Translations under genes and position numbers: made by a program
Notes under the pieces: model-generated
Told to the model about the DNA's origin: nothing
Seen by the model: only the letters and a program-made list of their open reading frames with translations
Databases searched by the model: none
In this document: positions 19,282-55,086 of the stretch, one piece after another
Layout: the number at the start of each line of letters is the position of its first letter
Position numbering within the stretch: the stretch's first letter is position 1
From: Styela clava
Taxonomy: Eukaryota
Assembly: GCF_964204865.1 (NCBI RefSeq)
Contig: NC_135259.1
Span: 11,594,001 to 11,658,000, forward strand
DNA: 64,000 nucleotides
Direction of reading: 5' to 3'

Positions 19282-22200
19282 CTACCAGCCGCTAGCTTCT
19301 GCTCCTTTGTCACGAGTGTCAGAAAATGCGTAGATAGCGGAAGAGTCACATTTGATTGCATTCACTCGGCCCATTTTACATGCTTCCTCCTGTAGAATAC
19401 GATTGTTTGCGTATGATCAGAGTTATACATAGCTATATTGGGATGAATATACCGCAAAACTAAGTTAATACAGGAATGTTAAATTTTACCAGCGTAGAAG
19501 TCTAACTCGGAAGAATATTGTTAAAATTTTGAAATGAAAAAAAATATATTAGTTATTTAAATACAAACCTTGCTCCTTTGTTTGAAGATTTTCTAAGTTA
19601 CAGATGAAAAAGTATCTACCAAACTTTACAATAGTAGAAAAAAAGCATCTTTGTAATTCCATGTGGAAGAAAAAAAAGACCAATACATGAGTTTTTCCTC
19701 TAGAATACTTCCTAGGACCTAGGACACGCTTTTTATCACATAGACATAAGGCTCAAAAGTGTCTAACTAGTTTCTCCCACCTGATCAATGTATACCACAA
19801 TCGATAGTAAATTGTCTTTATACTCTAAAGCAGGGGTCACCAACCCGTTGCCCACGGGCAACAAGTCGCCCGTGAAGACCACATGAGTCGCCCGCGGGTC
19901 TGTTCCAAAATAAACTTAATAACGGCGCTGATAAGTAAGCTACAACAATTAATTTTTGCCATGTTATTCTTGTAAAAAATCACACTTATATAACACTATG
20001 TTAAATATTATGGTAACGATCAATATAACTTTTATTTGACCGCAGTAATGTGACGGATCATTTAATACTCTCCCAATTATGACATCACACAGATGGTCAA
20101 CTTCCACGAACCTGCGGCTTTCGTATCCGTTGATTTGTGGAGCAGCAATGCCAATAATACAATTATTGATTTCAAAGAAAATTGAAAAAAAACCTACCAT
20201 TTTTACGATGAACGGAAGGTGGATTTCCTTTTACCGCCGTGAAAACAGCTCGCGTATGTCTCATTTGCGTGGAGTTTATAGCGACGACAAAGCGAAGAGA
20301 CATTTCACATCTTGTCACTATATATCCATTGGTCAGCGCAGTACGGGCAGAAAAAGCTGCCTTTTAATTCAAACGGCAATTCTATGTTACGAGATGGCTT
20401 GTACCAGTGTTTGGTACAAGCCATCTTAATGAATCAACATTTTTGGGCATGAACTTCACAAGGAACTAAGCACGGAATACGCCATACTGAGGAAGACCCG
20501 CTCAGAGTTGCATTGTCAAGTTACACGCTGGAGTACAACACACTGGTGGAAAGCATTAGACCAGATTTGTTCGATTTGGGTTTTCTCCTTGTTGAAAACA
20601 AGATATTCATATTAGTTAAATGTGTTTGTAAATGTAATATTCGGCAGTTCAACTGTTAAGTTCATTTCATCTTAGGGTTATGCAGGGTGTTTGTAAAAAA
20701 AAAAGTAGGTACACATTGTGGTTTCCGAAAATATTATTTTAGTGATCACTTTAAAATCAATTTGAAAAACACTTAGTTTGAAAATGGAAGGGTCATTGCT
20801 AGTAATTTATTTGCTACGTTGTGATAATTGTTTGATTTCCTGAAGAATCCTAAAGTTTATCAGTGTTTTTACTTGACTAAATATCAGTAATTATCAATAA
20901 TTGAAGGTTAATCGAGCAAATTGACCCGAATTGAAAATTTTAAAGTGTGCATTGAACTGGTAGCCCTCGGCTTAATCGTTACCCAGAATGTATCCCTCGG
21001 CTTCGAAAAGGTTGGTGACCCTGCTCTAAAGTCTAAACAGCGTCAGTAGCCCCGCTGTGCGTGATTTAATTCCGGTGGTATCAGGAAAAATGATAAACAC
21101 AAACTAATATTTTTGTAAATACTTCAGCACTAATACTACTAACTGCTTATATCCATGAACTATTGAATCCCACAAAACCTGGCATATATATTCGAACAGC
21201 AAGGGTTTGAAGCATATAATAACCTCATGTTCTTGGGAAAGTGTTTTTATTTTGTACTAAAATAAAAGCTGCTATCGTTTATTTATACTTGGCAATTTTA
21301 TTATCCAATTATTCAAATGAATTCAATAATAATTCATATATATATAATATATACTTAGAAACTTACAACGTTGTGTCCCATCTCTTTCAAGTTTTGAATA
21401 ATATCACCATCGAAACCAGCTTCGTAATAAAGAACATCCGGTACCAAAAAATCATGAAATCGTTTGTCTTTTATTGCATCACCAATATCATTTATACCAA
21501 AATACAAGGATCTGAAAAGTATAGATGAACAAGTAGAAGTGTAAATGTTCAGCTATACGAAAACTTGCATCATTGTTAACTGAGAATATGAAATGTATCC
21601 ATCAACTGGCGAAACAAGTCGGTTCACTGAATATCCGAGTTTTGAGCTCGAAGACCGGGACATTTAGATTGTCAAAATAGGTATAGTGACTAACAGTTTC
21701 GAGTCGTATCTGTTTTTTCAAATAGACCATTTGCCAAAGGGGAATTTTTTCTTCCTTCGCGGCTATCGAAAAACATCAATAGTATATATAACAAAAAAAC
21801 TGCAATAATCAATCTAATATACCTACTTAAGCATAACATTGGCCACTGCTCCTGGAATTCGGAAACCTCCCGAACCCCCAATGATAAAAGCTGGATCGCC
21901 ATTGCTGTCCAGAAATATAGCAGGCGTCATACAAGATAATGGACGTTTACCTCCCTCTATTTGGTTTGTCGCAGACAAATGAGAATCATGTTCATTGTCG
22001 CCATCTTGAGGAATGTAGAAAAGAAATTTATAGTACTGATTCAATGTTCCATACATCAGTGAACGTGATATTTATGCAAATACGACATACTAAGAAATGA
22101 AAATAACATGAATTCATTTAAAAATAATTAAATACATACTTGGATACGAAAAATCTGCCATTTCGTTGTTAAATACGATTCCTGTAGAAGGCGACATTAT

Positions 22201-25200
22201 TCGAGATCCCCATATAAAATCTATCGTTGAAGTTAAAGCGACAGCGTTTTTGTCTGGGTCAATCACTGATATATGCACGGTGGATGACATATGAGAGTCC
22301 AAAATCTTTGCACCATAATATACAGGATCATGAAACGTTCTATCATCAAGAATTTTATTCCGAGCAGAACGCGAATAATCTCCTGATACAATTTGATTTT
22401 GAATATTCAATACAGTTTGATCATAATCGGGATCCCCCATGCTGTATTGGGCACCAAAAGCATGTCGGAAGGCTTCATCAGTACGATGACACTGCAATGC
22501 AGGGTTCCTTTTGTAATCATCCGGTTTCATGTTAAATAAATCCATAACAGAAAGGATTGAGCCCAACACTGGTCCACCTGAAGGCAACGGCGGCGCATGC
22601 ATTGTATATCCAGCGTTAGCAAGTTTCATCGTGATTGTAGGTTTTTCAAGCACTGAATAATCCTGAAATGAAATTTTTTTCTACATCCATCAAAAGCGAT
22701 TAAAGTAAATACTGCATAATACTACTGAATCTGCATGTGGTTTTCATCCAAATCAGGCATCGTTGCGTAATACCTCGCACCACTGTCTTTCATAATTTAT
22801 TAAAAAAAATGAACAAGACTTACCATACTTGGATATTCAATTAAGTTTATACTAAACACGAGAATAGATTTTTTAATTAATACAACAAATACTGACCTAC
22901 AGAAAAATTTAGTATAACTCACTGTTAAATCTTGCTTTGTCAGAATTCCCCCTTGACATTGAATTTCGTGAATCATATTATCAGCAATTTCACCATTGTA
23001 GAAAACATCTATGCCTTGTTTTTGTATCTTTTCTAGTGTATCAGCAAGTAGAGGATTTTTCACTGTATCTCCTTCTTGTTTAACCTAGAAATATATGATG
23101 AGTCATTTTTTATTACTTTATCAATTATTGTTCAAATTTATGTCGCTAAATCACAAAAGTAAGTTTATAAAAGTAATTTACTGATGTAAACACTATGCTA
23201 CAGAAATTATGGGAATAAATTTTTATTTGTAAAAAATGGATTAAATGTGCCACCTTACTCTAACACTACTAGTGGAAATTTAAACGTTCACTGCAATCTA
23301 TCTGATATGGAATAAGTTTTCATTCCATGTATCCAAACCAATGCAATAGTTGAAACATAGTAACTAGACATAAAATAGACCAAGGATTGTTTTTGTTATT
23401 TTTGTAGTAAAACCGCATTTTTCTTTATGAGATGAAGTAGGTATCTTATGCAACGTTTTTAATTTAGAAATTTCTTCTGTGGTACGAGCCGTACCACAGA
23501 TTTGAAAATAGTTGTATATACTATATTTGTAATGAAGGACAACATTTTAACATTCGCGGGCAGGAGTGCTAACAGTATAAGTTTGTTTCTCACAAGCGCA
23601 CCAGTCACCCTCTATAGTACCATCTGCTGTTTTATTGATGCTACTTACTCCAGTTTTATCTTCAGTACAATAAACATCACTAAATGTTGAATTCGGATCC
23701 TTTTTTATAACATTGTCGTAAAGATTTTCCAACATTATAGCCATTTGCTTACTAACTTTGAACCCATTTCTAGCTTTATCAATTGCAGGTTGGAATAACT
23801 CTCCCCAAGATAAATTTCCTCCGTATTTCTTAAATGCGTACCTGTAGTATAAATGAATTCTATCGCTTATCGTGATTAAATTATATAGGCCCTAATAAAA
23901 TTTTCTTCGACATCTCTGTTCAATGTAATAACAAAATGTTTTACAACATTCTTGATTTAAACATATGAAAGAATTACCAAATGTTTCGTTAAAGTTTGCA
24001 AATAGTATAGATATATAGACCACTGGAAAACTTCGACATTCGTCCACAAGTCAATCTCTAATTTTTATCGGATCTACCAAAAGCAATACTGAAATGCTAC
24101 GTGTTAAAAATCATAAATTAAAAATCAGGGAAGGATTAACAAAAACGGGGAGGATTAACAAGAAAAATTTATTCAGCTAAATAACTTACTCCAGGCCTTT
24201 GAGTTCCCCTGGTACCGCAATAAACTTTGCACCTCTGATATAATCTCCCATTTCCAAAAACATTTCACGAGTTGCACCCGCGGGTGCCTTTTCTCTGGCT
24301 ATGATGGATGTGGTTGATTTTGTTGACGAATTGTAGATAGTCATTATACATCCTCCACCTGAATGAGTGTTGATAATCAACTGTTCACAACCGCTAAATC
24401 AATTTTGCATTTCTTATTACCCGAATCTAACAGCACTCATGCACGTATTTAGTTCCCTTTGTATCAGTATTTACATCAGAATACCGGTGTACACGAAAAA
24501 ATGCAACGCACTTCCTTATGTTTTCTCTTACCGTGAATAATGAATTACTCTATTCCTCAAACAGTGCTTCCCAACCAGTGGCGTATCTGCATAAAATGGC
24601 GCCCATGGCAACGTTTGAAAATGCACCCCCTTGATCGTTGACTGACTATTTTTATTAACAGCTTTTGTTGGAATTACGTTATTATTTAAATACAAATTGC
24701 TGATATTTTTAATTCCGAATTATATTATTGGAACATTTTAAAACTAAAACTTTTCACCGTTTTTGCGCCCCTATCCAAACGGCGCCCATGGCGGGAGCCC
24801 TGGCTGCCATACCCTAGATATGCCACTGTTCCCAACCAGTGGATCGCGATGCATTTCCAACACTTTCCAAAATGGGTCGCGACGCACTTCCAAATGGTGT
24901 ATACATTTTACAATTAGATCGGAAAATCGTGACATCATCATTACTTGACAATAATCTCATGAAACAATTAACAGTTGGAATTATTCGTTGTGTCTCGTTA
25001 ATAATTTTAGTACGCCCCTACAAGTGTTGGAAAGTGTAGGTAGGCTACTAGGTTGATTGATAATTTGTTGGATCAGAGTAGACAATAGCAAATACGCCGG
25101 TTTATGTAGTTGTTAATCTTACGTCGAATGAGTTGCATTTTGAATACTGGGTAAACCAGAGGTAATATACTTTATTTAAATTTCATAATTTTGTTTGATT

Positions 25201-26677
25201 TTTGAAAGCCACAATTTTTTCAAAAACAAAAGGTAAGGGAGTAAAAGAAAAAAAACACAACGTTTATATTGTCAATGCTACGTTGTGTGTGAGCTTGTCT
25301 CCTATCAATCCTCGACTTGATCTGATAATATTCAATATGCGAGCTCACGTTTTGCATTAATATTAAATTGCACGTGGATTATATCTTTTCTCGTATATTA
25401 ACATTTCATTGTGGGTCGCACAAAAAATGGAAATAAAAGTGCGTCGCGAACTGAAAAAGGTTGTGAAGCACTAATCTAAAATATTCATTGAAATACTCTG
25501 GATGTAACCATACCTATTCCAGAATAATACGGTTCGACGACACCTTGGCACAAAATAACCGCTATTGCTGCATCAACTGCATTTCCGCCTGCTTTCAAAA
25601 TATCACGACCGACTTCTGAGCATTCAAGTTGACCTATATTAAAAAAGAATTACCGGTAAATGTTATACTAAGGACTTGATATACGCATTATCGCGTGGGC
25701 ATAAACAGCGGTTAAACGCAGGTGTGTATACACTTTTCCCCGATTCGGTTGCCAATGGGTGTTCCCACAACATTTGACCAGAAAAATCATTTATTTTTAT
25801 ACTTTATCATTGAAAATATCGGATGCTTATTCCTAGAGTGATTACGCGAGTTGGCATAAAAACTGGTTGCGTGTTTCAAACTATCATTTTTATTCACTTG
25901 TCACTTAAAATTCCTGGTAGAAAAGTTTAGCCTAGTCTATCACGCCATTTCTAGACTAATTTTTGATTACTGCAATAAAACTAAAGACTCATAGAAAAAC
26001 GAAATGATCATTGAGTTATTTAATCCTAGCCTAAATCTTGGAAACACAACCAAAACTGACAAATGGAATTCAATACGTGTACCACTAAAACGGGTAATGT
26101 TTACAATCATGCCTGAAAATCTGTCCAAATGATCAAAGGGTCTAATCGGCTTGTAAAATTCATGTTGCTAGGTCACGTTTTGCGTCTTTCTGATTAGCCA
26201 TTATTACGGAAGTAAAAAAGGAAGTAGATGCTCGGGTAAACATCCAGTCTTCTTCTTTCCCCTAAGGCGGGTTGAATGTTTAAATTATCTACCTTCTATA
26301 TACACGTTGAGGAACAACGGGAGGATAAAATCGATGGTACGCTATGCTGTATTAGCACAACAATACTTATAAGAGTTATTGCGTTCTTGATATATATTGG
26401 TCTAGTCTGCACACAAAATCTAGAAAATTTAAATATTTTACTGCCTCTTCAAATGAATAGACAAAACAGTTGTAGGCCTACATACTATGTGGAAACATGA
26501 TGAGCGAACATGTTTACAATTGTAATAGATTCAAAATAAGTTGAATATAAGGATTAACTAATCTGAATTATGAATGCATTATTAGATGTTTTACAATCAA
26601 GAACTTTATGAATATCAAATGTAAACTAACATACCGGAAGCGACGGCAGCTTGATGGTATATGCCTGTTTGATTCAT
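19282..26677 (-). CDS. Gamma-glutamyltranspeptidase / glutathione hydrolase paralogue A, exons 26635-26677, 25514-25633, 24190-24358, 23649-23841, 22923-23084, 22140-22662, 21827-22004, 21367-21511, 19282-19389 (546 aa from MNQTGIY)
   Basis: GGNAVDAAIA, SGIGGG, AREKAP, IAVPGELKG, PPLPSGG, catalytic Thr in SS-TVHISV, NNEMADFS, KRPLSCM, GGSGG. Exon sizes are identical to the other two paralogues. The 5' end is uncertain. Confidence 0.93.
19831..21023 (+). mobile_element. Internally deleted hAT transposon (Charlie/SPIN/GTF2IRD2-like) in the last intron of GGT-A
   Basis: TIRs CAGGGGTCACCAACC / GGTTGGTGACCCTG and perfect TSD CTCTAAAG. Decayed transposase fragments include an N-terminal VCLIC...KRHFTSCH zinc finger and a C-terminal FGTSHLNESTF...LRVALSSY dimerisation motif. 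Confidence 0.85.
24562..25473. mobile_element. hAT (Charlie-like) MITE, TIR CAGTGCTTCCCAACC, interrupted by a younger element
   Basis: Left end cagtgcttcccaac[insert]cagtggatcgcg; right end cgtcgcgaactgaaaaaggttgtgaagcact. The TSD is not preserved. Confidence 0.65.
24576..24828. mobile_element. hAT-type MITE (TIR CAGTGGCGTATCT) with TSD TTCCCAAC
   Basis: TIRs cagtggcgtatct / agatatgccactg; perfect 8-bp duplication at 24568-24575 and 24829-24836. Confidence 0.88.
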
Positions 26678-32176: not shown

Positions 32177-35100
32177 CTACCAACCGCTAGATCCAGCCCC
32201 TCTGTCACGCAAGTCAGAAAATGCGTAGATAGTAGAGGAGTCGACTTTAATTGCATTCACACGACTAAGTTTAAGTGTTTCCTCCTGTAGAATACAATTG
32301 TATGATTAGTTTGGATTGAAACAGCAATCAACTATATTGGTATATCAACATTGCACACCTAAATCCAAACTAATCGAAAAACGTTTTAGCCATTTTATGT
32401 CACTTTTAAAAATTGTATTAAAATTTTAAAATTAAAAAGTGCGCCCTGGAATATATATATAACTTTTTTATCACAATGAATTGGCAATCCCATACCATAT
32501 ACAACGGGTAGTATTCACGGTGTGGCACCCAGAACATTCGCACCTGTATACTTTTGCACCCACAGACACTTCACGCATACATTTTCACCCATAGATTTTA
32601 TCATCTGCATATAAATTGCAACCGCAGACATTTGCACTCATGGACATTTGCATCCACGAACATTTGCACCCATGGACGTTTGAGCCCATTTGCACTCAGG
32701 GACATTTGCACCCAAGAACATTTACAACCATGGACATTTGACCCGCGTACATTTGTACCGACAGACATTTGCATACACGTACATATGCACCTAGCGAGCG
32801 GGTGCAAATGTATATGGGCGCGAAAGTAATGAAACCACAAATTTCACTTAGCACACTTGTACATGCTTATCTTTGCAGCCACGGAAATTTGCCCCCGTGG
32901 ACAATTACACTCATACATTTGCACTCTCCAAACTTTAGCATACCCATACAGATTGCACTCTTGAACAGTTGTGCCTATGGACATTTACACCCACGTACAT
33001 TTCGGCCACAGACATTTGCACCCATGGACATATAGACCCACGTATATTTGCGAATGTACAAAAGTATGCAGGCAAAAATGTCCTAGGTGCTGCAGTTGTG
33101 CAAATGTGCGGTTACCTTTTGGTTCATACGTGACAATTTAATGGAAACACCAATATAATATTGTGTCCTCGGTTTTAAAAACTTACAACTTTGTGTCCCA
33201 TCTTTTTCAAGTTTTGAATAATTCCGCTATTAAAACCAGGTTCATAATGAAGAGCATCCGGTATCAAAGAATCATAAAATCGTTTGTCTTTGATTGCATC
33301 GCCAAGATCATTTATACCGAAATACAAGGATCTAAAAAGTATCAAGTTGTGTGTAAGTGTAAATGTTCACCTATATGTTCACCCATATGAATCACCTCAT
33401 CAAGCTTTATTGGGATATAAAATATATCAGCCGTGAAGTCAAGTATAAGGACTAAAATTTTTGAGTCGTAAGTAATTTAATATTATAATTGACTGAATTC
33501 CCAAAAAAGGTAACATCCTTATTAGGGAAAAAACGAGATAGAAAAAGCCAAACGGCAATTTAACGTCATTTTAGATTGGCAACGAATTTTTTTTATGCGG
33601 CATTTGGAAGATATTCATCAACATTGGTAAAAACTCAGCCTTACATTATTCAATCGAATAAACCACCTACTTAAGCATAACCGTTGCCATTGCTGCTGGA
33701 ATTCGCAAACCTCCCGAACTTCCAATAATAAAAGCAGGATCATTATTGCTATCCAAAAATATAGAAGGCGCCATACAAGATAATGGACGTTTACCTCCAT
33801 CTATTTGGTTTGACGTGGACAAGTGATAATCATGCTTCATGTCGCCGTCTGGATAAATGTACAGAAAATAATTACAGCAGCAAATTCAATTCTCCATACA
33901 TGTCAGTGAAAATTAATATTTAAACAAATATGACATGGCATGATATGTTATGAAAGTCATAAAAATTCATATGAAAATAATAAAATACATACTTGGGTAT
34001 GAAAAATCTGTCATTTCGTTATTAAATACGATTCCTGTAGAAGCCGACATTACTTGACATCCCCATATATAACCGATCGTTGATGTCAAAGCTACTCCGT
34101 TTTTGTTTGGGTCAATCACAGATATATGTACGGTGGATGACATTCCGGAGTCCAAAACGATTGCGCCATAATATGCCGGATCATGAAATGTTTTGTCGTC
34201 AACAATTTTATTCCGAACAGAACGTGAAAAATTTCCTGACACGATTTCATTTTGTATATTCAGTACAGTTTGATCATAATCGGGATCACCCATGCTGTAC
34301 CGGGCACCATATGCATGTCGAAAGGCCTCGACAGTACGATGACACTGCAATGCGGGATTTCCTTTATAATCGTCTGGTGTAATGTCAAATGAATCCATAA
34401 CAGAAAGGATTGAACCCAACACTGGTCCGGCTGAAGGCAGCGGAGGCACATGCATTGTATAACCAGCGTTAGCAAGATTCATCGTGATTGTAGGTTTTTC
34501 AAGCACTGAATAATCCTTATTAAAATTTCGTTAAATGTCAATATCGAAAACGATGAAAGTAATTATACCTCAATTGAAAGAAGATGAGTCTTGTATTAAC
34601 GAAGTCTGGACCGCGGAACCGTCACACGATATGCCATTTTTCAATTTTGACGACGTCATCACACATAACTTTAAAGTGAAAAACGAATCCCATAGAGCCC
34701 ACAGAAACTCTAGTAATAAATAAAAACCTTCTAACCGACAACAACCACTACCACTGAAAATATCAAAACAACTGGTCCAATAGATAAAGATTTCTTTACA
34801 ACACCAAGAATAAGAATATATATAACGAATTCTAATAACAACAAGAATTTACAAAACGATGCGCAAATCCACCTAGTGTCTAATATAACCACTGACACAA
34901 AGCGAACTTTATTTTAACTCACTATTAAATCTTGCTTCGTCATAATTCCACCTCGACATTGAATTTCATGAATGATATTATCAGCAATTTCGCCATTGTA
35001 GAAAACATCCACGCCTTGTTTTTGAATCTTTTCTAGTGTATCAGCAAGTAGAGGGTTTTTCACTATATCTCCTTCTTGTTTAACCTGGAAAGATGCGACA

Positions 35101-38100
35101 TTTCATCTTGAATACTTTATAAATTTTTGTTCCAATTTCACATCGCCTACTCGCAAATGTAAGTTTAAAAAAGAAGTTTACGAAGGTAAACACTATGTCA
35201 CAGAAATAAGAACCGCAAATTGGGAATCAAGATTATGAAGGTGATTTTTCTTTTTAAAAATTTGCGCGCAACTTAATTTGAACAATACAATGGTTATTAG
35301 TTTTATTTTAACAACCACTGATTCAGACACATTTACATGATCAGTAGCTAAACATGTAGGCATCTCATGCGAGTTTCTTTTCTCAAAAGCGAACCAGTAG
35401 CCACTATCTGAGTTATGTGTTATTTATTTTAATAATTCTACTTACTCCCGTTTTATCCTCGTTGCAATAAACATCACGAAATGTTGAATTCGGATCCTTT
35501 TTTATAACGTTGTCGTAAACATCCCTCAACATTATAGCCATTTGCCCACTAACTTTGAACCCATTTCTAGCTTTATCAATTGCAGGTTGAAATAATTCTC
35601 TCCACGATAGATTTCCCCCGTATTTCTTAAATGCGTAACTGTAGTATATAATAAATTTTATTTCCATCGCTTACGGTGGTTAATGTAAATTAGGTAAATT
35701 TTTTACTTCACATATCTATCCTCCATGGTTATGCACTAACAAATGTTTTACAATATATTGAAGATTAAAAGAACTTAAAAAATATTCTGACACCAGCACC
35801 TAATTGAAAGAATTAACGAATGTTTCGTTAAGGTTTGCAAATAATATATATTAACTGGAAATCTTGAACCTTCGTCCACCAGTTAGTTGATCTCGTTTGT
35901 TTATCGGATCTATTAAGGGCAATAAAAGAATGACAAGTGTTAAAAGATATAAATTATAAAAAAAAATTGCAAACGGGGAGGATTAACAAGAAAACCATAT
36001 TCTGCCTAATAACTCACTCTAAACCCTTGAGTTCACCAGGCACCGCAATAAATTTTGCACCTCGGTTATAATCTCCCATTCCCAGAAACATTTCACGAGT
36101 AGCACCCAAGGGTGCTTTTTCTCTAGCTATGATGGACGTGGTTGATTTTGTTGACGAATTGTAGATGGTCATTATACATCCTCCACCTAAAAGAATGTTG
36201 ACAATCAACTTTTACAACTGGTAAATAAATTTTGAGCAGTCCTTGTTATTTGAAACTCGCACTCACACACGCATTCGTTGGTCACGAATCGACCCTATAA
36301 ATCATTTTTATTGAACTGTTGTTGTAATTAATATTATTTTTGGTATTTTTCTCATAAATTTTCTTTTTATCTACTAGATGAAAAACCTTGAGATTTTCAG
36401 TGTTACAGATTGTGGTTCTCGCTAGAAGCCTATTACTTTTATCTATTTCACAGATTCATGTATGCTCTTTGTTTTGATACTACTTCGTTTTGGTCTTCTT
36501 TGTATTTTTATTTTCGAGAATTTATCTCTTGTTTTGCATAGCATTAGCATTTATATTGGAACAGTAATGTATAGTCTTCACAGAGAATATCCTGTGAATG
36601 CAACTACTGTATGCTATATCGTAGTATACTATATCGTAGAACATTTGCAGGAACAATAAATATTTGCACGAATACTTCAAATGTAGTCATACCTATTCCA
36701 GAATAAAACGGTTCAACGACACCTTGGCACAAAATAACCGCTATTGCTGCATCAACTGCGTTTCCACCTGCTTTCAAAATGTCGCGACCGACTTCTGAGC
36801 ATTCAATTTGACCTATATATATTAAAAGAAGAATCAAATGCTATTATGAGGATGGAAGGTATAGATTCGTAAATACGATACTAGCACGTGGGCGCAAAGG
36901 ATAGTTAAAAGCAGGCGTACATAATTTAATGGAAATAAATTCAGTGAGTTTGTATAGTTCCGCACCGCTGATGTTAGTCAATAAGGAACACTGTCGATAT
37001 TAACTCGATATTCGGCACAGTGCTGGTTGTATCATTTGATGGCTGACCGTACATTTGAACCCATACATTTGCACTCGTATATCCGCGGGTTCAATCTATA
37101 TGAGGGAGCTAAAATTCATGGGTTAGGGTTACTATGGGTTCAAATATCTATAAAAAAAAATCCATAGGTGCAACAGTATGCAGGTGCAGTTGTCGTGGGT
37201 TCAAATGTAAAGGAACCCATTTTATGATTAGGTACCCAGTAAAATACATCGAACAACTGTTTCTAATTGACATTGTTGCGTCATAATGTACCTACTGGCG
37301 CAATCTGGTGTGGGTCTGATGGGCGGGAATTTGAATCGCGTATTTGTTTGCATAACTAGAGTTCGTAATCATTACTAGATGTAACATTGGAATGTTTTTT
37401 GGCGCGAATGTACGCGGGTGAAAATGTACTTAGCGCAAATATCGGTTGGTGCAAATGTACGTGAGTGGAAAGGTAGGCGGATCAGATGCAATCTGCAACT
37501 GAGTGTGAGAGTAGTATGCAGGTTTCAAACCCGAATGCAAGATGATGGAACCTGTTGAGATACCTAAAGTTTGCTGTCAAAGAAGAAAACCCTTTTTTTT
37601 AGCTAAAATTGCGTGGGTCATATCTATGTGAACTGGGATTTTTTAACACTCAACAATATACCGTAAAGGCGTAAAGTATAAGAACGAGAGCGGCTTTGTT
37701 GCATTGAAAAGGTAACGAGGGTTTGTCTTACTGAATTACGTCCTAACATTAAGACTGTTGTCACAAACATCATGCTTGTGTTACTCACTGAGAGATTTGT
37801 TGTAGGCCTACACTACAAAGGTACAAATATTTAGTTAGTTTGTTACATATGCTGGGTTATTTACACTTACACACTTGAACTGGACACAAGTATGGACCTG
37901 ATTCAATGCATTACATGGGAAAATACTGGGATTTATATTGAAGCTATCCTATGACTAAGGACCACTATCTACTTATCTGTGATCCGGGGTCTGGGAGTGT
38001 GATATTTTCAAGGGAAGATCATGATAATCATAAAGAAACAAAAGTGATCTGGGCTGAAAAATCAGACAAGTTTTTCAGTCTAGATTTTCAAGCGTTCGAT

Positions 38101-39824
38101 AAGAGTTGTTAATTTGGAATATCAGTTTAAAGAAGCCGAGATGCATATTGCATCTTGGGTCGGCAACAGGTGTAAGAAATAAGTTAATTGTATGACTGAC
38201 CCTCACTGACAAATGCTCAAGATTACAAATTTTGAAATGAAGACTTTCTAAATTCAAACCAAATTTGTTACACAAAATGCAACGTCCGAAACTAGATTTC
38301 GATGTATGTTGTTTACTTTTTAGCTTTGTTCGGTTACTAAGAAAAACAGAAGCTAACCACTTAGTTCAGGGCTGTGAAGCCTCTAATACAGGAGCGCCAA
38401 ATACAAATAACTGGGTAAAACCACGGGCCGCATTTTCATTCAACATAGACTTTGTAGTAGACCCACGCGAAAAAATTTTGGTCGTTGATTCTATGACATG
38501 CATTGTTTGATTCGCACAATCTAGCTGTTAGGTCATTGTAACTTTATAAGCATAGATAATAAATTGTAACCAGGTATATCTTTAACAAGCGAAGGGATAA
38601 AAAGTACTGGCACGCAGTGGCGTAGCATCCACCCCCGCAAACCCCGCGGTCGCGGGAAGGCCCACAGCGCAAAGGGGGCCCAAGCGATTAGAATTTAGAA
38701 AGGGAGTCGTCGATTTTCGGCGACTTGTGGTTTGATCGCACCGGCAAAATTACGAAGGCTATCAGAACGATGTCGAAAGACAAACCTCTCAGTGACGCAC
38801 AGAAACAGGGCAGAATAGTAAGCACGTATGAAAAAAAATGTAAAGTAACCAAGATAAACGGCAAATTTTAGGTTACCATTGCCTTTTAGCGACATGTTAT
38901 GCTTTTTGACGAAAAAAAAAACGCTGTTGTAGCTTATGTTCGAGAGTTTTAGGGTCATTTCCACGAAATATTTTGCGGGGGGCCCACGAGAGTCTTGCTA
39001 CGCCACTGCTGGCACGTACTTGATTAGACTAAATTAAAAACTCGTTTCGCGGGCCGCCGACCATTGACACTTCTCCGCGGGTCGCACAATTGTTTCCTTG
39101 TTGCCGCAGGTTGTACAACCCCGACTCAGATGTTATTATTGGGATTCGGATTTGTAATTTTTTTTGTACTCCTACCCACTTTCGCTCACCAAAATTATTT
39201 ACAACTATACAAGTAGGCCTAAGCTTCGTCTGTGAACTTTATTTTCTCGTTTTCATGTATGCTGTTTATGAACCTTTGATTTCAGTAAGATTGTCGTGGT
39301 GTGTTTTTCCACTTGTGTTAGTGAATGGGAACAAACGTTAGTTATAGCGTTTTCCATAAAGCCTTCTCCAAGTTTTGCCAGTTTTCCCTATCTTTCAGTC
39401 GTCATTGTCGTTGTTCTTTATTTTTTTTTATCTGTGTTGCAGGCGAATAATCGAGATAAATATACTTATACAATCGTATTGTATTAGTAGAAACGTAAGC
39501 GCAACATTAGTATGTTAACGTAAAAAAAATTTTGTATTCAAATGTCAAAGGTGGGCCAAATAATTTGTTTTCCCCAAGAGAAAAAGAGTTGGTTCACAAA
39601 CACAATTAAGATACCTAAATTGTTTTACTGGTTAAACAGATAGATGGGCAAAAAAACGACGAGTAAGCGAAAGTCTTCACATTTGTAAGGAATTTAAAAA
39701 ATTCGAATAATGAACCAGTTTTTTACATTTTTGACAAACAGAAATTTAGTGTAGTGAGGTGTAAAATCTTAACTAACATACCGGAAGCGACGGCAGCTTG
39801 ATGATATATTCCTGTTTGATTCAT
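32177..39824 (-). CDS. Gamma-glutamyltranspeptidase paralogue B, exons 39782-39824, 36693-36812, 36018-36186, 35446-35638, 34923-35084, 33993-34515, 33671-33848, 33187-33331, 32177-32284 (546 aa from MNQTGIY)
   Basis: Same exon sizes and phases as paralogue A, intact frame. Motifs GGNAVDAAIA, AREKAP, SS-TVHISV, TSTIG, NNEMTDFS, RPLSCM, GSSGG. The 5' end is uncertain. Confidence 0.93.
32520..33116. repeat. Foldback-type CATTTGCACCCATGGA arrays (probably two adjacent elements) in the last intron of GGT-B
   Basis: Many degenerate catttgcaccc units with short inverted ends at ~32800-32837 and ~33060-33116. Confidence 0.8.
37041..37552. repeat. Further foldback MITE copies/fragments (CATTTG(A/C)ACCC family), one containing GGGTTAGGGTT
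   Basis: tacatttgaaccc ... gggttcaaatgta inverted pair (~37050-37210), plus gtgcaaatgtac units at ~37400-37550. Confidence 0.65.
38615..39008. mobile_element. hAT-type MITE (TIR CAGTGGCGTAGCA) with TSD CTGGCACG, in a GGT-B intron
   Basis: Perfect 13-bp TIRs and perfect 8-bp TSD at 38607-38614 and 39009-39016. Confidence 0.9.
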
Positions 39825-41030: not shown

Positions 41031-41889
41031 TTGCTATTATTTTCCCTGTGTAACTGTTGGACAACTGAAAGAAATTTAAAATGTTATACTGTCTGTGTCT
41101 TAAATATGACATACCATTAATAAAATTTGATTCCTCTGTTATATCAACTACTATCCATAAATAATTGATATTGCAACTTCAGATTGAATAATATACTCAA
41201 AAATGTTATTATTATTAACAATTTATTGGCGTTCATTGCAGTTTATTACTGCAAGGTGGTCCAAGGTTGTTGGCATTTACAGCCACAATATTATTTTTGT
41301 ATTGTTCGCAGGCCACATCAGTGCAATATGCTCATTGCTCACAAGATTCAAAACTATCGTTTTAGAATATATTTTTTTGGCACCGACACAACCTGCAGAC
41401 ATCAGGCATTGTGGATTACTCTCTTATCAAGTTAAAAATCTGTTTTAATCGGTCATTTTTTTCAAACTCTGTCAACACTACACATCAGATATGCTCACAG
41501 CAGATATATTCATTACTCTGTTACTAAACTTCGCAAATGTGAGCTAGGGCTGACAGGAGGGGTAGTAAGTAAGACAATGCGACAGGGGGTACCGTATATC
41601 AGTATATTGCAGTATTGCTACCGTAGGTCATAACTGCTATCGTACGATATCAGTAGGGTGCCGTACCAGTTAGTACAGCAGTAACTGTTATAGCCAAACT
41701 GTAATAACAGATTCCCCTTTTTTTTTAGTTGTCTACTGGTCTATGAAGGCTATTGCAGTATTGAAATATTGTGAGCGAATATTCCCTACTGAAAAGAAGT
41801 TCAATTTGTGGAACCTCAAGGTCATTTAAGGCTGTCAGAATAAATGAATTACGATAAGATAGTTAACAATATAGTCCTGCCCAGCACAC

Positions 41890-45079: not shown

Positions 45080-45595
45080 CATCTTGCTGATTACATTGAT
45101 TCATCGCAAAACCTACAGAAATTTAGTGGTGATTCGTTTCTCTTGCCGGATGTTTATATTTGAACGTCACCACAGCTCGTAGATCTGAAAATATTTGTTA
45201 ATAGTTAGATTGCGGCTGTTAATTTCTGTTTTCCTAAAATCGTCGACAGTTTAGTTAAAGATCTGATGTAATTTTACTCGTGGAAAAATATATTCTCGTT
45301 CAGCGATTTACCGACAAACGGTAGTGTATATTTTGTTTTATTACAAATGCATGGATAAATTTTCATACTGGGTAAAACTTGTTCTGAAGTTTTGCAGCCG
45401 TATTTTCTTTCATTAGTTTTATAGAAATGATTTAAATCACGTGAAATGCTTTGCATAATTGATTGGAGGATAAACACAAATATTGATAACAGTTTTCAGT
45501 TGTAAGCTATGTTCAGAAAGATATAATAAAGAGAAGCGGACTTATTGTCACGCATGACACGTATAAACAATTTGATAATTGAGAATTTACTGTTA
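45080..45595. repeat. Diverged duplicate of the GGT-B 3' flank (31601-32118)
   Basis: Colinear anchors catcttgctgatt, ttagtggtgatt, aaaatatttgttaat, cttgttctgaagttttgc, gtgaaatgctt, aaatattgataa and gttcagaaagat. Confidence 0.8.
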
Positions 45596-48529: not shown

Positions 48530-51500
48530 ATGAAGAAGAACTGTGGTGTTCCGACTGCAATATTGGTTGCTATCATGGCACCTCTCCTGGTGAGTAATTA
48601 TATTTGTTTATCAAAATATTATGTGCTAATACCTTATAAGTGACGGGAGAAATGACACAGACCGTCAAAATTTTGGTGTCTTGTAGATGGTAACTATATT
48701 ATCGATGTACAAAGAAAATTATTGGTCAAACATACATAATTAAACATAAGTTCAATAAACCCCAGAGGACCCCAGTAAACTGGTCTCGTTTTTCTACACA
48801 AAATAAATTGTTTGCAAACGTTTTAAAATTACAACTCCTTGTTAAAAATTTAACTTTTGAACTTTCGGAATCAATCAACATTTGCCGACATTTTCTCAAA
48901 TGTTCTGTCACGCTTTGTATCTATGATTATTCATCAATCGATTATTTCTTTTAAGTTGTTGTTCATACACGCTAGACGTAACGTATGTGTATTACATATA
49001 CGTTCGCATCGGTTTACGGTAACAAGTATTTCCTGGGTTTATTTAACATAACATACGTTGTATATTGATTTGTGATCTTTAGGTTTTTAGGAAGTTCCTC
49101 GTTAAATCAAAACACATTTGGATACTAGGTAATGATCGTTATTCGGAAAAATTTGAGCTAAATAGGTCAGATAGGAGTGGCAGATATAATATTTCATCTT
49201 TTAAAGATTTGAAACGAATAATCGTTTCTTATGGAGATTTTATTTTGGCCCTGTGAATGTAGAAAAGACGTTTGAAAAATGCATTGATTGCGAGTGGAAA
49301 AAGATTTATTCAAATATGTTTATCTTAAATGGGGTTGTTGTTGATGTTGTGAAAAACATTTTTTCTCTCTATTTCAGTATTACGGATTTGAGATATCGCT
49401 AGAAAGTTATTATTTTAATTAAAGTGCCAGGCGGACTCAATTCCCCCCATTTTCGGGGGGGGGGGGCGATAATAAATATCTCTTGTTTAAATGTACTATT
49501 TTCAGTTCGACTTGTGCCAGAATTTCGGAAATTCTCATGCGTTGACAGAGGAGATGGATCAAACAAAAATATACCATCACGCAGCCGTAGCCGCTGGTAT
49601 TTATATTTAGCATTTAACTCTCTCGCCGCTCGTTAGTCCATATGGGATTCTCAACGCTATTAAGTCTAGCACATCGTAACCTACTGTTAATATCGCTCTT
49701 AGCTGTTTATTGACGTAATGCCCTGATATGAGAGAAGCGATAAAACCTTCCAGCCGTGACGCAAAGTGCGAATCGTATAAATAGCGTGGATTTCAAAATC
49801 GCCTGTCAGACGTCTGAAAATGTCGACTCAGCTCAGACAGAAAATACTCCTTTATAACGACTTATTATTGCTTTAGCATGTATTTTCAGTCATACTAACT
49901 ATCCCTGATCATTCCTGGCGCTGTGTTGTTTTGATAAATATGATTTCGACTGCTCCATAGTTGGCAGAGGTATGGAGATTTTTTGTATGTAAAAAAAACG
50001 TAAAATTAATGGTAATTTTAACGCGTGAATGCGCGTATGAGATTGTTTACGTCGTTCTACGCGCATTTCCGTCGAAAAAATTTAATTTTTTTGCATTGGG
50101 GGTGGTCTGTGCAGTAATAATAAGAGCTGTGACGTCATCAGTATCGGTAATTTGACCTTGAACTTGACAATACTGTAAATACAATTGTGAATTTCAGAGT
50201 AATAACCATTTATGCTATAATAGTCGTTTCGGTATTGTTATGTTAGGAAAAACTTGACGAAAACGTTGAAAAAAAAACTAATTAATTAGGAATTAATTAT
50301 TAACCCTCTACTGTACACAGAATATCTCAAAGTCCAATTTTTTTTTTAGAAATTTTTGAAATTTTTTTGCAAAATTTTTTTTCGAGGAGTGTGTTTTAAA
50401 GATATATTGCTGAATAGAACTCTAGCAGACGCTTTTAAAAAGCCATGATTGAAGCTTAAGGGCTTAATGGTTGACAAAAAAAATAAGTTTAAAAATACCC
50501 ATAAAATGGTCAGGGATTGGAGCGGTCGGAAGGTTAATAACTGTTAATGAATATTGGTAATTTTATATTGCTGTTTTTATATTCTGAATTAAACATACTT
50601 AATCACAAATATAATATATGCATAATTTATCAGGTCAACTGGAATGCTCTGAAGTAGGACGTGATATTTTGAAAGCAGGAGGAAATGCAGTAGATGCAGC
50701 AATTGCAGTTATTTTGTGCCAAGGTGTCGTCGAGCCATATTTTTCTGGAATAGGTATGTATTATTATTGGGATATTTTTGGGTGATCATTGTAATTAATA
50801 ATGGTCTAGTAACCACATGTTTGGTTACAAATATAGTAGGCTAACAGACCCATTTACCAATTGAGCGCCCCGATTTGACGTCGCGTCATGAGCATAGCTA
50901 TTTGGGCGCCGGGTTGCAGACCCATCCAGCTATTTTGGGGATTTTGGAAAATATTTTTGAGAACTGATTTTGTCTATTGAGTCCATTTTTATTTGGCGCC
51001 CAAAAGGCCGTCGACAAGCTGGGACAAAATCAGCAGGAGTCTATAAGGCAGTGCCCAAACGGATGATCTTAAACGTATCATGTCCTAGATCTTATAGTGG
51101 AATAGTTTGACATATTTTCTGCTAAAACTTTAGGTGGAGGGTGTATAATGACCATCTACAAATCGTCAACAAAATCAACGACGTCCATAATATCTAGAGA
51201 AAGAGCGCCATCAGCTGCAACTCGTGACATGTTTTTGGGCATGGGAAACAACAAACACGGAGCAAAATTTATTGCGGTGCCTGGAGAACTCAAGGGCTTG
51301 GAGTAAGTTATTTAATCAGACTTACATACATAAAATAGCAAAGTAAAGTAACACAAGTATTCGAGCATGAAGAAAAAACGAAACCTGAGTTTTCAAGTGT
51401 CCAAATGCGTTCCGAACTACATATGATAGAGTAATTCCTCTCTGCAAAATATTTTCTTTATTTTAATTTTTAAATTCGCTTCCTTACGTTTGTTTGATGT

Positions 51501-54500
51501 AGGGTGCGTAGTCGCTCCCCTAGAACTCTTTGAGTGCCGAGACTGGGATTCCTTTAAAGGTTCGCTTTCAAGTCTCTAATAATAACGAGTAGAATTCTTA
51601 GTTGTGTATTATATTCTTTAATAACGAAAATGGTAAAACTGATATATAAGGATTGATAATAAATTGATCAAATAGTGAAATGATTTAAATCAAAATTAGA
51701 TTGAGACAGGAGCATGCGGTTGCAATGCGTGTCGCACGCGAGTCAAACAGATTTTTAAATAAATCTAGGTACCACAATGTGTGCTTGATATGTCGGCAAG
51801 TCGGTGACAAAAGAATATAAATCCGAACGGCATTTTAAAATCTTGTGGGCAATAAACACTTTCCAAAGTTGAGATTTTGCTTTGAAAGTCTTAGCAATGT
51901 TCGGAAGCAATAACATTTGCGGAACACTTTTTCCGTTATGGGGAGTTTCAAATCTTACCCTAAATGTAGATATATGAAGACTTTTGCATGTTTTAGTGAG
52001 TTTTTTGGAGGTTTTTGCATGTTTTAGCTTGTTAAATGAAAAATACTGATCAATGTGTTTTCACAATAGGAGCGTTTGTTTTGTATTGCACTGTTTACCT
52101 ATTCTCGGCACTATTGTGGCCCGCGAACGATGCAAAATAATTTTGTGGCCCCCGGAGCCGACAACTTTGGACCACCCTATACTCGTATATACTCAGTGTC
52201 TGATTAGATTCACTGCACTTGAGTGTCGGTAGCTAAAATCTATTTCGTACTACAGATACGCTTACAACAAATATGGAGGCAATTTATGTTGGGATAAGTT
52301 GTTTCAACCCGCCATTGATAAAGCAAGAAACGGCTTCAAAGTTAGCGGACAAATGGCTATTATGTTGAAATATCTTTACGACAAAGTCATAATTGAAGAT
52401 CCGGATTCAATATTCTGTGATGTTTATTGCAACGAAGATAAATCTGGAGTAAGCAATTATACACCATATAATGACTATTTTGTTTTTAGTTTTCGCTGTT
52501 GTTCTACAAGACCAGTTGCTTTAGTAATTTTGTTCAATATATCATTATTTTCCATAAAAAGAGTGAGTTACCAAGTGATTTAGGAGAAGTCTGCACTTTT
52601 ATACATAACGACACAGACAATGTATATTTAGTTAATATTTTGTGTTTACAAAAAATCTCTGTTCAGGTTAAACAAGAAGGAGATATTGTGAAGAATCCTC
52701 TACTTGCTGATACACTAGAAAAAATTCAAAAACATGGCGTAGATGTTTTCTACAGTGGTGAAATTGCCGATAGTATTATTCATGATATTCAAAGTAGAGG
52801 TGGAATTATGACGAAGCAAGATTTATTGGTAATTTCTCAAAACACTTTTTTTAATCACGTTTTATGTTTTCTAAATTTCTCATGACTATAGTAAAACATT
52901 TATCACACTGTAGAATAAAATTATAGCGTGGAAGTTTGCAATTTAAGAATAATTATGAATTAACGTCGTTGCAGAAACATGTTACTAACTGAATTTCTAG
53001 TCTTTATACTTTAATGACATTATTTTCAACTATAATTTATTGCAGGATTACACAGTAATCGAAAAATCTACAATCAAGATGCGTCTTCCTAACGGCGACC
53101 ACACGATGCATGCGCCTCCGTTACCTTCTGGAGGCCCGGTAGTGGCAGCAATCCTTTCCGTTATGGACCTTTTTGACATTACATTGGAAGAATTTAAAAG
53201 AACACCAACATTGCAATATCACCGAACAGATGAGGCATTCAGACACGCTTTCGGTGCTAGATACAGTATGGGCGATCCCGCATATGACCAAATTGCACTA
53301 AATATTCAAAATCAAATAGTATCTGGGCAATATGCAAGGTCTGTCCGTACTAAAATTTTTGACGACAAAACATTCCACGATCCGGCTTATTACGGAGCTA
53401 AATTTTTGGACTCCAGTATTTCATCCACATTGCATATATCTGTACTTGATCCGGAAGGCAATGCTGTCGCTTTGACATCAACAATAGATTATTACTGGGG
53501 ATCTCGCATAATGTCATCTTCCACTGGAATCGTCTTCAACAACGAAATGGCGGACTTTTCATATCCAAGTAAGATCATTCTCTTTCAAACATTATTTACG
53601 TTATCTTACTATTATTAGTACTGTTTACAATTTATAGAATTTTATTCGGGAGCAATTTTTCTTAATCCTAATAAAATTATATTTTCCCAGATGGCGATAG
53701 TGAGCACGACTCTGAGTTGTCAGCAACAAACCAAATAGAAGGAGGTAAAATACCCTTATCTTCCATGACACCTGCTATGTTTTTGAACGATAATGATGAT
53801 CTTGCTTTTATCATCGGAGCATCGGGGGGTACACGGATTCCAGCAGCAATTGCGACTGTCATACTCAAGTAGGTATACTTCGCTATCATAGCACACGTAC
53901 TAGAAGTAAACTTTAAAGCCTGTAACAATTTTACTTTGTGATATACATATTCATGTATATCTATGTTCAGCGTTTTGTCTTTCACTTTTTGTTAGGTTCC
54001 TCTATTTTGGTGAAAATGACATTGGCAGTGCAATAAAGGACAAGCGTTTTTTTGACGCTTTGATACCGGACGTTCTTTACTACGACGCTGGTTTTGATGA
54101 TGAAATTATACAAAATTTGAAAAAGATTGGTCACAATGTTGTGAGTATTTGCTGTTGTTTTGATTAACCATTCATACGCAGTCATGTATGAGCACTAAGG
54201 CTCGTTGTAAAATCCCATCAATGATTGTCTAACAAACGACAAAATAATTCACGATATCATAAATCATCCAAGGTAGACGCAAGCAAAAATACATCAATAT
54301 AAAAAATAAAAAAATAAACGCTTTTTTGAGTCATATATATGTCTGAATATAAGCTTGTAGCGGATATGAACACTGTCGGTGAAATATTATCTTTGGCACC
54401 CATGTGCAGTTTTTTGTTTTTGCAATTTACTTAATATTTAACTACTACTACAACATTTGTTACAATGTTGGCTCAATTATTTGAGATCAGAAAAATTACG

Positions 54501-55086
54501 GCATATATTCTTAGGCTTTATTCACAATTCTACTCCGAACAAAGATCTGTAGCCTTTAATCCTCCACCATATGGGCAACAAGTTTCTTTTTCAAGGTTTT
54601 CGCTTCTACGTTGTAGTTGTTCATTTACTTCAACCATTGGTGAGGTGGTGGGCTTGGGGTTCGATGCTGAGGTATTAAGAAGCTCAATTTTCACGAATAT
54701 CATTTAACTGAAAAAGCTAGAGCTGAATGTCGAACGTATCATTTGTTTTAAGCAATTAGATTACTTTTCTCTTTTGGTATTCAATTTATTTGTTTGACCT
54801 TCTGACTCCAACTTTTCTTATATACCACGAAAGGAGCTACTATTTATTTGGAAGGACCGTTATCTTCCCAATTTGGCATTTATTAAATGTCGGGTGAGGT
54901 GGGGATGGAATTTGAACCCGAAATATGTGATCTGCGAATTAGCAATTACAGAAACGTTACTTACTTGTTCTTATTCAGAGAGAGACAACTTACACCGGTC
55001 GAGTGAATGCAATCAAATGTAACTCTTCTGCGATATACGCATTTTCTGACTTGAGGGATATAGGGGCAGGACCAAGTGGCTGGTAG
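48530..55086 (+). CDS. Gamma-glutamyltranspeptidase paralogue C with N-terminal hydrophobic leader, exons 48530-48589, 49506-49596, 50634-50753, 51134-51302, 52256-52448, 52667-52828, 53046-53568, 53691-53868, 53996-54140, 54979-55086 (582 aa)
   Basis: Reads MKKNCGVPTAILVAIMAPLL|FDLCQNFGNSHALTEEMDQTKIYHHAAVAAG|QLECSEVGR..., with SS-TLHISV, TSTID, NNEMADFS, IPLSSM, GASGG, ending DLRDIGAGPSGW*. All introns are GT-AG. Assignment of exon 1 rests on phase match and hydrophobicity. Confidence 0.92.
50304..50533. mobile_element. piggyBac-like MITE flanked by TTAA
   Basis: ttaa|ccctctactg ... cggtcggaagg|ttaa; the TIRs are imperfect. Confidence 0.5.

What the first reader, a model, noticed from the sequence alone, without database searches (positions are those of the whole stretch)
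19282..55086. Three-gene GGT cluster with a systematically remodelled gamma-glutamyl pocket
Seen: all three copies are intact and keep the nucleophile Thr, the Arg of ARE/SRE, the Glu and second Asp of NNEMxDF, and the Gly-Gly oxyanion hole. However, the conserved TSTIN reads TSTID (A, C) or TSTIG (B); PLSSM reads PLSCM (A, B); T-[AST]-H reads TVH/TLH; FGS reads WGS/WGC; and the lid loop lacks the usual aromatic gate (NGDNEHDSHLS, NGDMKHDYHLS, NGDSEHDSELS). C also has RFF for RFH. Known: human GGT1 Asn401/Glu420/Asp423 bind the glutamate alpha-amino group and Arg107/Ser451/Ser452 bind the carboxylate. Inference: a lineage-specific family of active Ntn-hydrolases with altered and mutually different donor specificity, possibly acting on non-glutathione amides.
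Basis: partly seen in the sequence, partly recalled or inferred. Interest (0 to 1): 0.7.

Follow-up and report, generated by a model that had tools for sequence, protein, structure and literature searches.

The report
Sea squirt glutathione-cutter copies, retuned pockets
A sea squirt carries three intact copies of a glutathione-cleaving enzyme gene that differ at a few normally fixed active-site positions, and two appear to lack the membrane anchor, so they likely still cut glutamyl bonds but on a shifted set of substrates, possibly inside the cell.

Summary
Three intact GGT genes of the ascidian Styela clava (name from NCBI labels of identical proteins) form a recent triplet (75-84% identical) in an ascidian subfamily that groups loosely with vertebrate GGT5.

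Two of six glutamate-binding residues changed: Asn401 to Asp/Gly (Asn in 241 of 253 homologs) and Ser452 to Cys (0 of 253). Arg107, Glu420, Asp423, Ser451, the nucleophile and the oxyanion glycines are kept. WG, WGC, RFF/RFY and an aromatic-free lid occur in other homologs, and His fills the Phe433 position.

Selection is purifying (dN/dS 0.14), with no positive selection detected.

Best reading: gamma-glutamyl hydrolases with a loosened donor site and new leaving-group preference, A and B probably soluble. Donors lacking an alpha-amino group are less likely, because Asp423 is kept. No activity was tested. The scan had not noted these genes before; it had noted a rebuilt glutathione-synthetase copy in this genome.

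The parts
19282..26677 (-). GGT gene A, 546 aa, no N-terminal anchor in the model. Coding exons 26677-26635, 25633-25514, 24358-24190, 23841-23649, 23084-22923, 22662-22140, 22004-21827, 21511-21367, 19389-19282
   Evidence: same sequence as P0002; PF01019 502.8 bits; AlphaFold2 pLDDT 96.5
32177..39824 (-). GGT gene B, 546 aa, no N-terminal anchor in the model. Coding exons 39824-39782, 36812-36693, 36186-36018, 35638-35446, 35084-34923, 34515-33993, 33848-33671, 33331-33187, 32284-32177
   Evidence: same sequence as P0003; PF01019 490.7 bits; in-frame stop 22 codons upstream of the ATG
48530..55086 (+). GGT gene C, 582 aa with a hydrophobic N-terminal exon. Coding exons 48530-48589, 49506-49596, 50634-50753, 51134-51302, 52256-52448, 52667-52828, 53046-53568, 53691-53868, 53996-54140, 54979-55086
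   Evidence: P0123; 9 of 9 introns joined in contigs of runs X1, X6 and X8; PF01019 482.6 bits
48530..48589 (+). Signal/anchor exon of C; no homolog found upstream of A or B
22219..22281 (-). A: nucleophile Thr (TVH) through the Asn401-equivalent Asp (GAT)
21931..21942 (-). A: PLSC, Ser452-equivalent Cys (TGT)
34072..34134 (-). B: nucleophile Thr (TVH) through the Asn401-equivalent Gly (GGT)
33775..33786 (-). B: PLSC, Ser452-equivalent Cys (TGT)
53427..53489 (+). C: nucleophile Thr (TLH) through the Asn401-equivalent Asp (GAT)

Best explanation
Three recently duplicated GGT-family enzymes of Styela clava that likely still self-cleave at the conserved Thr and hydrolyse gamma-glutamyl amide bonds, but with a loosened donor site and a rebuilt leaving-group site, and of which A and B likely act as soluble, unanchored enzymes while C is likely anchored or secreted. 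Shown: intact genes, GGT fold, catalytic Thr/His/Thr/Thr and Gly-Gly kept, Arg107/Glu420/Asp423/Ser451 kept, C spliced with its hydrophobic first exon. Inferred: the glutamyl group still docks through Arg107, Ser451, the 452 backbone, Glu420 and Asp423; Asp401 (A, C) can replace the Asn401 side-chain oxygen as Glu does in Bacillus GGT; Gly401 (B) and Cys452 (A, B) weaken or loosen binding. Aromatic residues at His81/Ser82, Ile at Tyr403 (A, B), Trp404, His at Phe433 and a one-residue insertion at Lys562 would reshape the cysteinylglycine/acceptor site. These enzymes would therefore favour hydrolysis over transpeptidation and prefer gamma-glutamyl amides other than plain glutathione, differing among copies.
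For: Fold: pLDDT 96.5, pTM 0.95; TM 0.87 to the B. licheniformis precursor, rmsd 1.7-1.8 A to human GGT1 chains. dN/dS 0.24/0.16/0.17 for A-B/A-C/B-C; 0.144 on the window subtree against 0.06 elsewhere. Of sites at least 70% conserved and unchanged in the parent-type copies, only 7 change in A/B/C, three of them Asn401, Phe404 and Ser452. Human contacts: Ser452 binds through its main-chain N, its side chain only through water; Asn401 through its side-chain O; His81, Ser82, Tyr403 and Lys562 form the CysGly site; Y403A keeps under 10% of transpeptidation (PMC7949050 passages). B. licheniformis GGT has Glu at 401, and its S461A mutant is more active than wild type (PMC6769717 passages). Ser82 is Ser in 183 of 247 homologs but Tyr/Tyr/Phe here. 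A and B begin at the same Met in two NCBI annotations, have no homolog of C's first exon upstream, and A lacks the first Cys of the CX3C pair kept by the other five chromosome copies' alleles.
Against: No activity data. Human S452A has about 1% activity (cited in PMC6769717), so Cys452 could cripple A and B. Pocket enrichment is weak: Fisher p 0.075 at the 90% threshold and 0.24-0.69 at 80%; p about 0.014 only when derived changes alone are counted (hand calculation, after seeing the data). No positive selection: M1a/M2a p 1.0, M7/M8 p 0.088, branch-site p 1.0, on six sequences with near-saturated dS outside the triplet. Much of the leaving-group change is ascidian-wide and shared with copies that keep a canonical donor site. 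Lys/Arg follows the insertion in A and B, so Lys562 may be functionally kept. The 5' ends of A and B were not confirmed with reads; an AG precedes each ATG in phase 0, one hydrophobic candidate exon lies upstream of each, and A and B carry 4-5 N-glycosylation sequons. B has the CX3C Cys in another allele.
Confidence: 0.5

Rival explanations
1. The donor site no longer needs an alpha-amino acid: the enzymes are amidohydrolases for non-glutamyl donors (glutaryl-, beta-aspartyl- or D-glutamyl amides).
For: Asn401 is replaced four ways (Asp, Gly, Ala, Ser) in the five daughter copies on this chromosome, each reachable by single steps from Asp (codons GAT, GGT, GCC, TCT against AAC). The sister copies go further: E420N in P0004; R107K, E420V and D423V in P0133. 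A B. subtilis triple mutant that includes this site gains glutaryl-acylase activity (PMC8062742 passages).
Against: A, B and C keep Glu420 and Asp423, the two salt bridges to the alpha-amino group. Asp433 to Asn, the switch in class IV cephalosporin acylases, is absent. Asp401 adds negative charge, which favours an amino group. No Asp/Glu racemase match was found in the genome (not proof of absence).
Confidence: 0.2
2. Relaxed duplicates: weakly active or inactive GGT-fold proteins kept for dosage, structure or binding, with pocket changes drifting in after the parent copy took the catalytic role.
For: dN/dS rises from 0.06 to 0.144 (LRT 18.5), about 8% of sites fall in a neutral class on these branches, and there is no positive selection. 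Human S452A is nearly dead. A lacks CX3C, whose loss is recalled (not retrieved) to block autocleavage of human GGT2. Eroded pockets recur in this genome's other GGT expansion, and 19 of 253 homologs have two or more pocket deviations.
Against: Thr381, His383, Thr397, Thr399, Gly473/474, Arg107, Glu420, Asp423 and Ser451 are kept in all three copies. No derived change at 55 highly conserved non-pocket sites. Most invertebrate GGTs lack CX3C. C is spliced in contigs from three studies.
Confidence: 0.18
3. Ordinary glutathione-degrading GGTs; the substitutions are functionally neutral and all three copies are ectoenzymes with an unannotated signal exon.
For: Asp for Asn and Cys for Ser are near-isosteric. 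Acidic residues at 401 occur in Bacillus, scallop and oyster GGTs. WG, RFY/RFF and aromatic-free lids occur in other homologs.
Against: Cys452 occurs in 0 of 253 homologs and Gly401 in 3 of 253. Tyr403 is lost in A and B. Canonical-looking GGT1-type genes exist elsewhere in the genome (C6:14.71 Mb, C5:23.29 Mb), and the parent copy keeps all eight pocket sites.
Confidence: 0.12

Closest known systems
Human GGT1 (PDB 4GDX, 4Z9O; EC 3.4.19.13 / 2.3.2.2)
   Same: Same fold (rmsd 1.7-1.8 A, 37-38% identity). Thr381, His383, Thr397, Thr399, Arg107, Glu420, Asp423, Ser451, Gly473/474 are kept, and the lid has the same length.
   Different: Asn401 to Asp/Gly, Ser452 to Cys (A, B), His81-Ser82 to two aromatics, Tyr403 to Ile (A, B), Phe404 to Trp, Phe433 to His, an insertion at Lys562, Gly380 to Ser. 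A and B have no anchor in the models; A has no CX3C. Not grouped with vertebrate GGT1 in the trees.
Vertebrate GGT5 (shark P0093, anchovy P0135, characiform P0199)
   Same: The ascidian clade groups with GGT5, a lamprey protein and a mollusc clade (SH-aLRT 97, 94, 0.825). Like human GGT5, it differs from GGT1 at His81 and Tyr403.
   Different: Human GGT5 keeps all six glutamate contacts (PMC7949050 passage); these copies keep four or five. The grouping joins long branches and was not tested with an AU test.
Parent-type ascidian GGT (S. clava P0008; orthologs in Ciona, Phallusia, Clavelina, P0009, P0011)
   Same: Same exon pattern including the 523-nt exon; about 62-64% identity; shares Ser380, aromatic 82 and, in the Styela-like copies, the GD-x-x-HDS lid.
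   Different: The parent keeps TSTIN, PLSSM and FG, and has a long cytoplasmic tail plus a transmembrane segment.
Bacillus subtilis / B. licheniformis GGT (PDB 3A75, 4Y23)
   Same: Acidic residue at the Asn401 site; tolerance of change at the second Ser (S461A is active).
   Different: The bacterial enzymes have no lid loop; these copies have a full-length lid and 28-32% identity.
Class IV cephalosporin (glutaryl-7-ACA) acylases and D433N E. coli GGT
   Same: GGT fold with an altered alpha-amino site.
   Different: The defining Asp to Asn change at human 423 is absent.

Membership tests
GGT family (PF01019, MEROPS T03) | Full-length Pfam match above the cut-off | tested here: met
   483-503 bits, profile positions 1-510/512
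GGT family (PF01019, MEROPS T03) | GGT/Ntn-hydrolase fold | tested here: met
   Model of A: pLDDT 96.5, TM 0.82-0.87 to GGT precursors; B and C were not folded
GGT family (PF01019, MEROPS T03) | Thr nucleophile with His383, Thr397, Thr399 and the Gly-Gly oxyanion hole | tested here: met
GGT family (PF01019, MEROPS T03) | Autocleavage and gamma-glutamyl hydrolase activity | not testable with these tools
   Needs recombinant protein
Canonical GGT1 | Six glutamate contacts R107, N401, E420, D423, S451, S452 | tested here: not met
   4 of 6 in A and B, 5 of 6 in C
Canonical GGT1 | CysGly site H81, S82, Y403, K562 | tested here: not met
   YY/FY/YF at 81-82; I/I/Y at 403; Asp then K/R/I at 562
Canonical GGT1 | N-terminal type II membrane anchor | tested here: inconclusive
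   Present and spliced in C; absent from the models of A and B, whose 5' ends were not checked with reads
Canonical GGT1 | Orthology to vertebrate GGT1 | tested here: not met
   Separate from shark and catfish GGT1 (quick trees, SH-aLRT only)
Vertebrate GGT5 | Phylogenetic grouping | tested here: inconclusive
   SH-aLRT 94-97 for a group that also holds mollusc proteins; long branches
Vertebrate GGT5 | All six glutamate contacts conserved | tested here: not met
Class IV cephalosporin acylase type | Asn in place of Asp423 | tested here: not met
   Asp in all three copies
Bacillus-type lidless GGT | Acidic residue at 401 and no lid loop | tested here: not met
   Acidic in A and C only; lid full length

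The most novel reading that the evidence does not exclude
A and B are cytosolic animal GGT-fold hydrolases, freed from the membrane, that with C and the sister copies break down a non-glutathione gamma-glutamyl(-like) peptide made by this genome's divergent glutathione-synthetase copies: a parallel, sea-squirt-specific version of the gamma-glutamyl cycle.
Probability: 0.12. Interest if true: 0.75.

Novelty: new variant of a known kind. Interest (0 to 1): 0.4.

Why it matters
Animal GGTs are known as cell-surface glutathione hydrolases with a nearly invariant donor pocket (own knowledge; the invariance is confirmed). This chromosome holds a natural series at one pocket position (Asn, Asp, Gly, Ala, Ser at 401) in six paralogs under purifying selection, with a canonical parent as a built-in control. 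That is a ready test of what Asn401 and Ser452 do in a eukaryotic GGT, where human and Bacillus mutagenesis disagree. If A and B are truly unanchored, they would be soluble intracellular animal GGTs, which would need either low glutathione activity or another substrate. On its own, pocket drift in duplicated invertebrate GGTs is not rare, so the interest is moderate.

Tried and rejected

Positive selection: none detected; six sequences give low power.

Orthologs of A/B/C in other species: none above about 57% identity outside S. clava and the parent-type P0009 among near-length, representative and short-fragment searches, so the pocket changes could not be dated.

Homolog of C's first exon upstream of A or B: none; only chance-level hits and one phase-0 hydrophobic candidate each.

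Asp/Glu racemase family in the genome: no match; this does not show absence.

RFF, WGC and the aromatic-free lid as special features: rejected, since they occur in other homologs. Pseudogene status: rejected.

The careful tree did not finish; quick trees were used, and no AU test was run. No complex prediction or docking was run: no glutamate or glutathione ligand is offered.

The primary paper on human GGT2 and CX3C could not be retrieved, so that point is recalled only.

Literature searches (listings only) showed no paper on these genes. Subscription journals and supplements were not seen.

Full report
Setting. The window is G000:C13:11594001-11658000 of a 377-Mb genome. Proteins matching the window genes are labelled Styela clava in NCBI. 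The Pfam search gave 95 exon matches, which I group into about 18 GGT loci: six on C13 (three here, three at 5.76-5.81 Mb), six on C9, two each on C5 and C6, one each on C14 and C17.

Observation. Exon models from coordinates give three uninterrupted frames with 25 of 25 GT-AG introns: A 546 aa, B 546 aa, C 582 aa. Identities are A/B 84%, A/C 78%, B/C 75%. For C, 9 of 9 introns, including the one after the hydrophobic first exon, are joined in contigs of runs X1, X6 and X8; X5 shows seven the same way and two with a small shift (4 runs, 3 studies, RNA status a guess). Proteins from two NCBI annotation versions differ at 5, 7 and 3 residues for A, B and C, none at the listed pocket sites. The AlphaFold2 model of A has pLDDT 96.5 and matches GGT precursors (TM 0.82-0.87) and human GGT1 chains (rmsd 1.7-1.8 A). 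Human numbering was checked against PDB chains.

How unusual the changes are. The background was 253 of 256 homologs outside the Styela C13 clade (top hits to C; 3 dropped for gaps). Rare: Asn401 is Asn in 241 (Asp 1, Glu 2, Gly 3); Ser452 is Cys in 0; the residue after the nucleophile is Val in 1. Not rare: Trp404 11, Cys406 7, Tyr or Phe for the RxH His 33, and a lid without F/Y/W 20 of 111. The lid has the human length, and His occupies the Phe433 position in all three copies and in the parent. The one Asp and one of the two Glu cases at 401 are scallop and oyster GGTs. B. licheniformis GGT has Glu there, as does B. subtilis GGT (PMC8062742, passages).

Is it pocket-specific? Of 63 sites at least 90% conserved, 8 are pocket sites. 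A and B deviate at 2 of 8 and C at 1 of 8; each deviates at 2 of 55 others, both shared with the parent copy (Fisher p 0.075 for A and B, 0.34 for C). At the 80% threshold there is no enrichment (p 0.24-0.69). In the background, 213 of 253 have no pocket deviation and 19 have two or more. Only seven sites that are at least 70% conserved and unchanged in parent-type copies change in A/B/C; Asn401, Phe404 and Ser452 are among them. The signal is focused but small.

Phylogeny and selection. A, B and C form a clade (SH-aLRT 100), sister to P0004 + P0133 (99), within an ascidian clade (100). Its other members (P0008, P0009, P0011, Ciona, Phallusia, Clavelina) keep Asn401 and Ser452. The ascidian clade groups with vertebrate GGT5, a lamprey protein and a mollusc clade at SH-aLRT 94-97 (quick trees, long branches). 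Pairwise dN/dS is 0.16-0.24. My codon models (M0 log-likelihood equals IQ-TREE's) give 0.144 on the window subtree against 0.06 elsewhere, with no positive selection (M1a/M2a p 1.0; M7/M8 p 0.088; branch-site p 1.0). Codons at 401 are AAC in the parent and GAT, GGT, GAT, GCC, TCT in the daughters, which fits one Asn to Asp change followed by further single steps (inference).

What the changes mean. In human GGT1 the alpha-amino group is held by salt bridges to Glu420 and Asp423 and a hydrogen bond to the Asn401 side-chain oxygen. The carboxylate is held by Arg107, Ser451 and the Ser452 main-chain nitrogen, with the Ser452 side chain acting through water (PMC7949050, passages). All salt bridges are kept here, and Asp can supply the oxygen. 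Mutagenesis of the second Ser is contradictory: about 1% activity in human, more than wild type in B. licheniformis (PMC6769717, passages). The change that gives glutaryl-acylase activity, Asp433 to Asn, is absent (PMC8062742, passages). A gamma-glutamyl donor is therefore still most likely, with B the loosest.

Human His81, Ser82, Tyr403 and Lys562 bind cysteinylglycine; Y403A and K562 mutants lose most transpeptidation. Here 81-82 are YY, FY, YF (Ser82 is Ser in 183 of 247 homologs) and 403 is Ile, Ile, Tyr. Asp follows the DxR motif where 205 of 253 homologs have Lys or Arg; Lys/Arg comes one residue later in A and B, Ile in C. Part of this is ascidian-wide.

Location. C has a hydrophobic first exon. 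A and B start five residues before the first core strand in both annotation versions. No homolog of C's first exon lies upstream, although the codons just before the ATG still resemble C's stalk, and B has an in-frame stop 22 codons upstream. A lacks the first Cys of the CX3C pair, and B is polymorphic for it. Against this reading: the 5' ends were not checked with reads, a phase-0 AG precedes each ATG, one hydrophobic candidate exon exists upstream of each, and sequons remain. A soluble location is likely, not shown. GGT is described as membrane-anchored, with glycosylation needed for maturation, in PMC12663528 (passages). The role of CX3C in human GGT2 is recalled, not retrieved.

Context. 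The genome keeps canonical-looking GGT1-type genes (C6:14.71 Mb, C5:23.29 Mb) and has a second expansion with eroded motifs on C9, C6 and C14. An earlier scan note (e1-9518488) reports a glutathione-synthetase copy with a rebuilt pocket. I found one canonical locus on C18 and two weak matches on C4, and divergent synthetase-like exons at one of them, but did not check that pocket. One glutamate-cysteine ligase locus was found. Any link to these GGTs is speculation.

Verdict. Real, intact, selected GGT paralogs with a small, focused change in the donor site, a rebuilt leaving-group site and probable loss of the anchor in two copies. A new variant of a known kind; interest 0.4.

Noticed in passing
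G000:C13 about 5.79 Mb (L032; P0133/P0010): A sister copy is far more altered than the window genes: R107K, N401S, E420V, D423V, S452T, yet intact with the nucleophile and Gly-Gly kept. It is the best candidate in this clade for a non-glutamyl donor or a non-catalytic role.
   Followed up: partly
G000:C13 about 5.80 Mb (L033; P0004): Sister copy with N401A and E420N.
   Followed up: partly
G000:C9 10.43-10.49 Mb and 1.49 Mb, C6:12.64 Mb, C14:6.35 Mb (L037-L046; P0121): A second, separate GGT expansion with eroded motifs (RS[VI]AP, NDQIGEY, ALSTTCP). P0121 also lacks an N-terminal anchor, so anchor loss may have happened twice.
   Followed up: partly
G000:C13 5754306-5767028 (P0008) and orthologs P0005, P0009, P0011, P0016: The parent-type ascidian GGT has a long acidic cytoplasmic tail, in P0008, P0009 and P0011 ending in a dileucine (resembles an endosomal/lysosomal sorting signal; motif recalled), and a His-rich stalk.
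   Followed up: no
G000:C4 15.64 and 15.67 Mb (L050, L051): Two weak glutathione-synthetase matches besides the canonical C18 locus; divergent synthetase-like exons are visible in L050.
   Followed up: partly
P0146 (scallop), P0159 (oyster): A mollusc GGT clade that groups near the ascidian clade has Asp or Glu at the Asn401 site and a short lid in these two members.
   Followed up: partly
window 51162: All four runs read T where the window has A, giving Asn instead of Lys at C residue 100 and restoring an N-glycosylation sequon.
   Followed up: no
window 31601-32118 and 45080-45593: A 550-base block 66% identical at the two places; a dispersed repeat or a remnant of the duplication.
   Followed up: no
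window 1225-1632 (+), 3866-4288 (-), 12181-14295 (-), 57686-59017 (+): Neighbours: an ORF without a Pfam match, a serine carboxypeptidase exon (PF00450), a 704-aa uninterrupted AVL9 frame (PF09794) and a BTB-domain gene (PF00651); no apparent link to the GGTs.
   Followed up: partly
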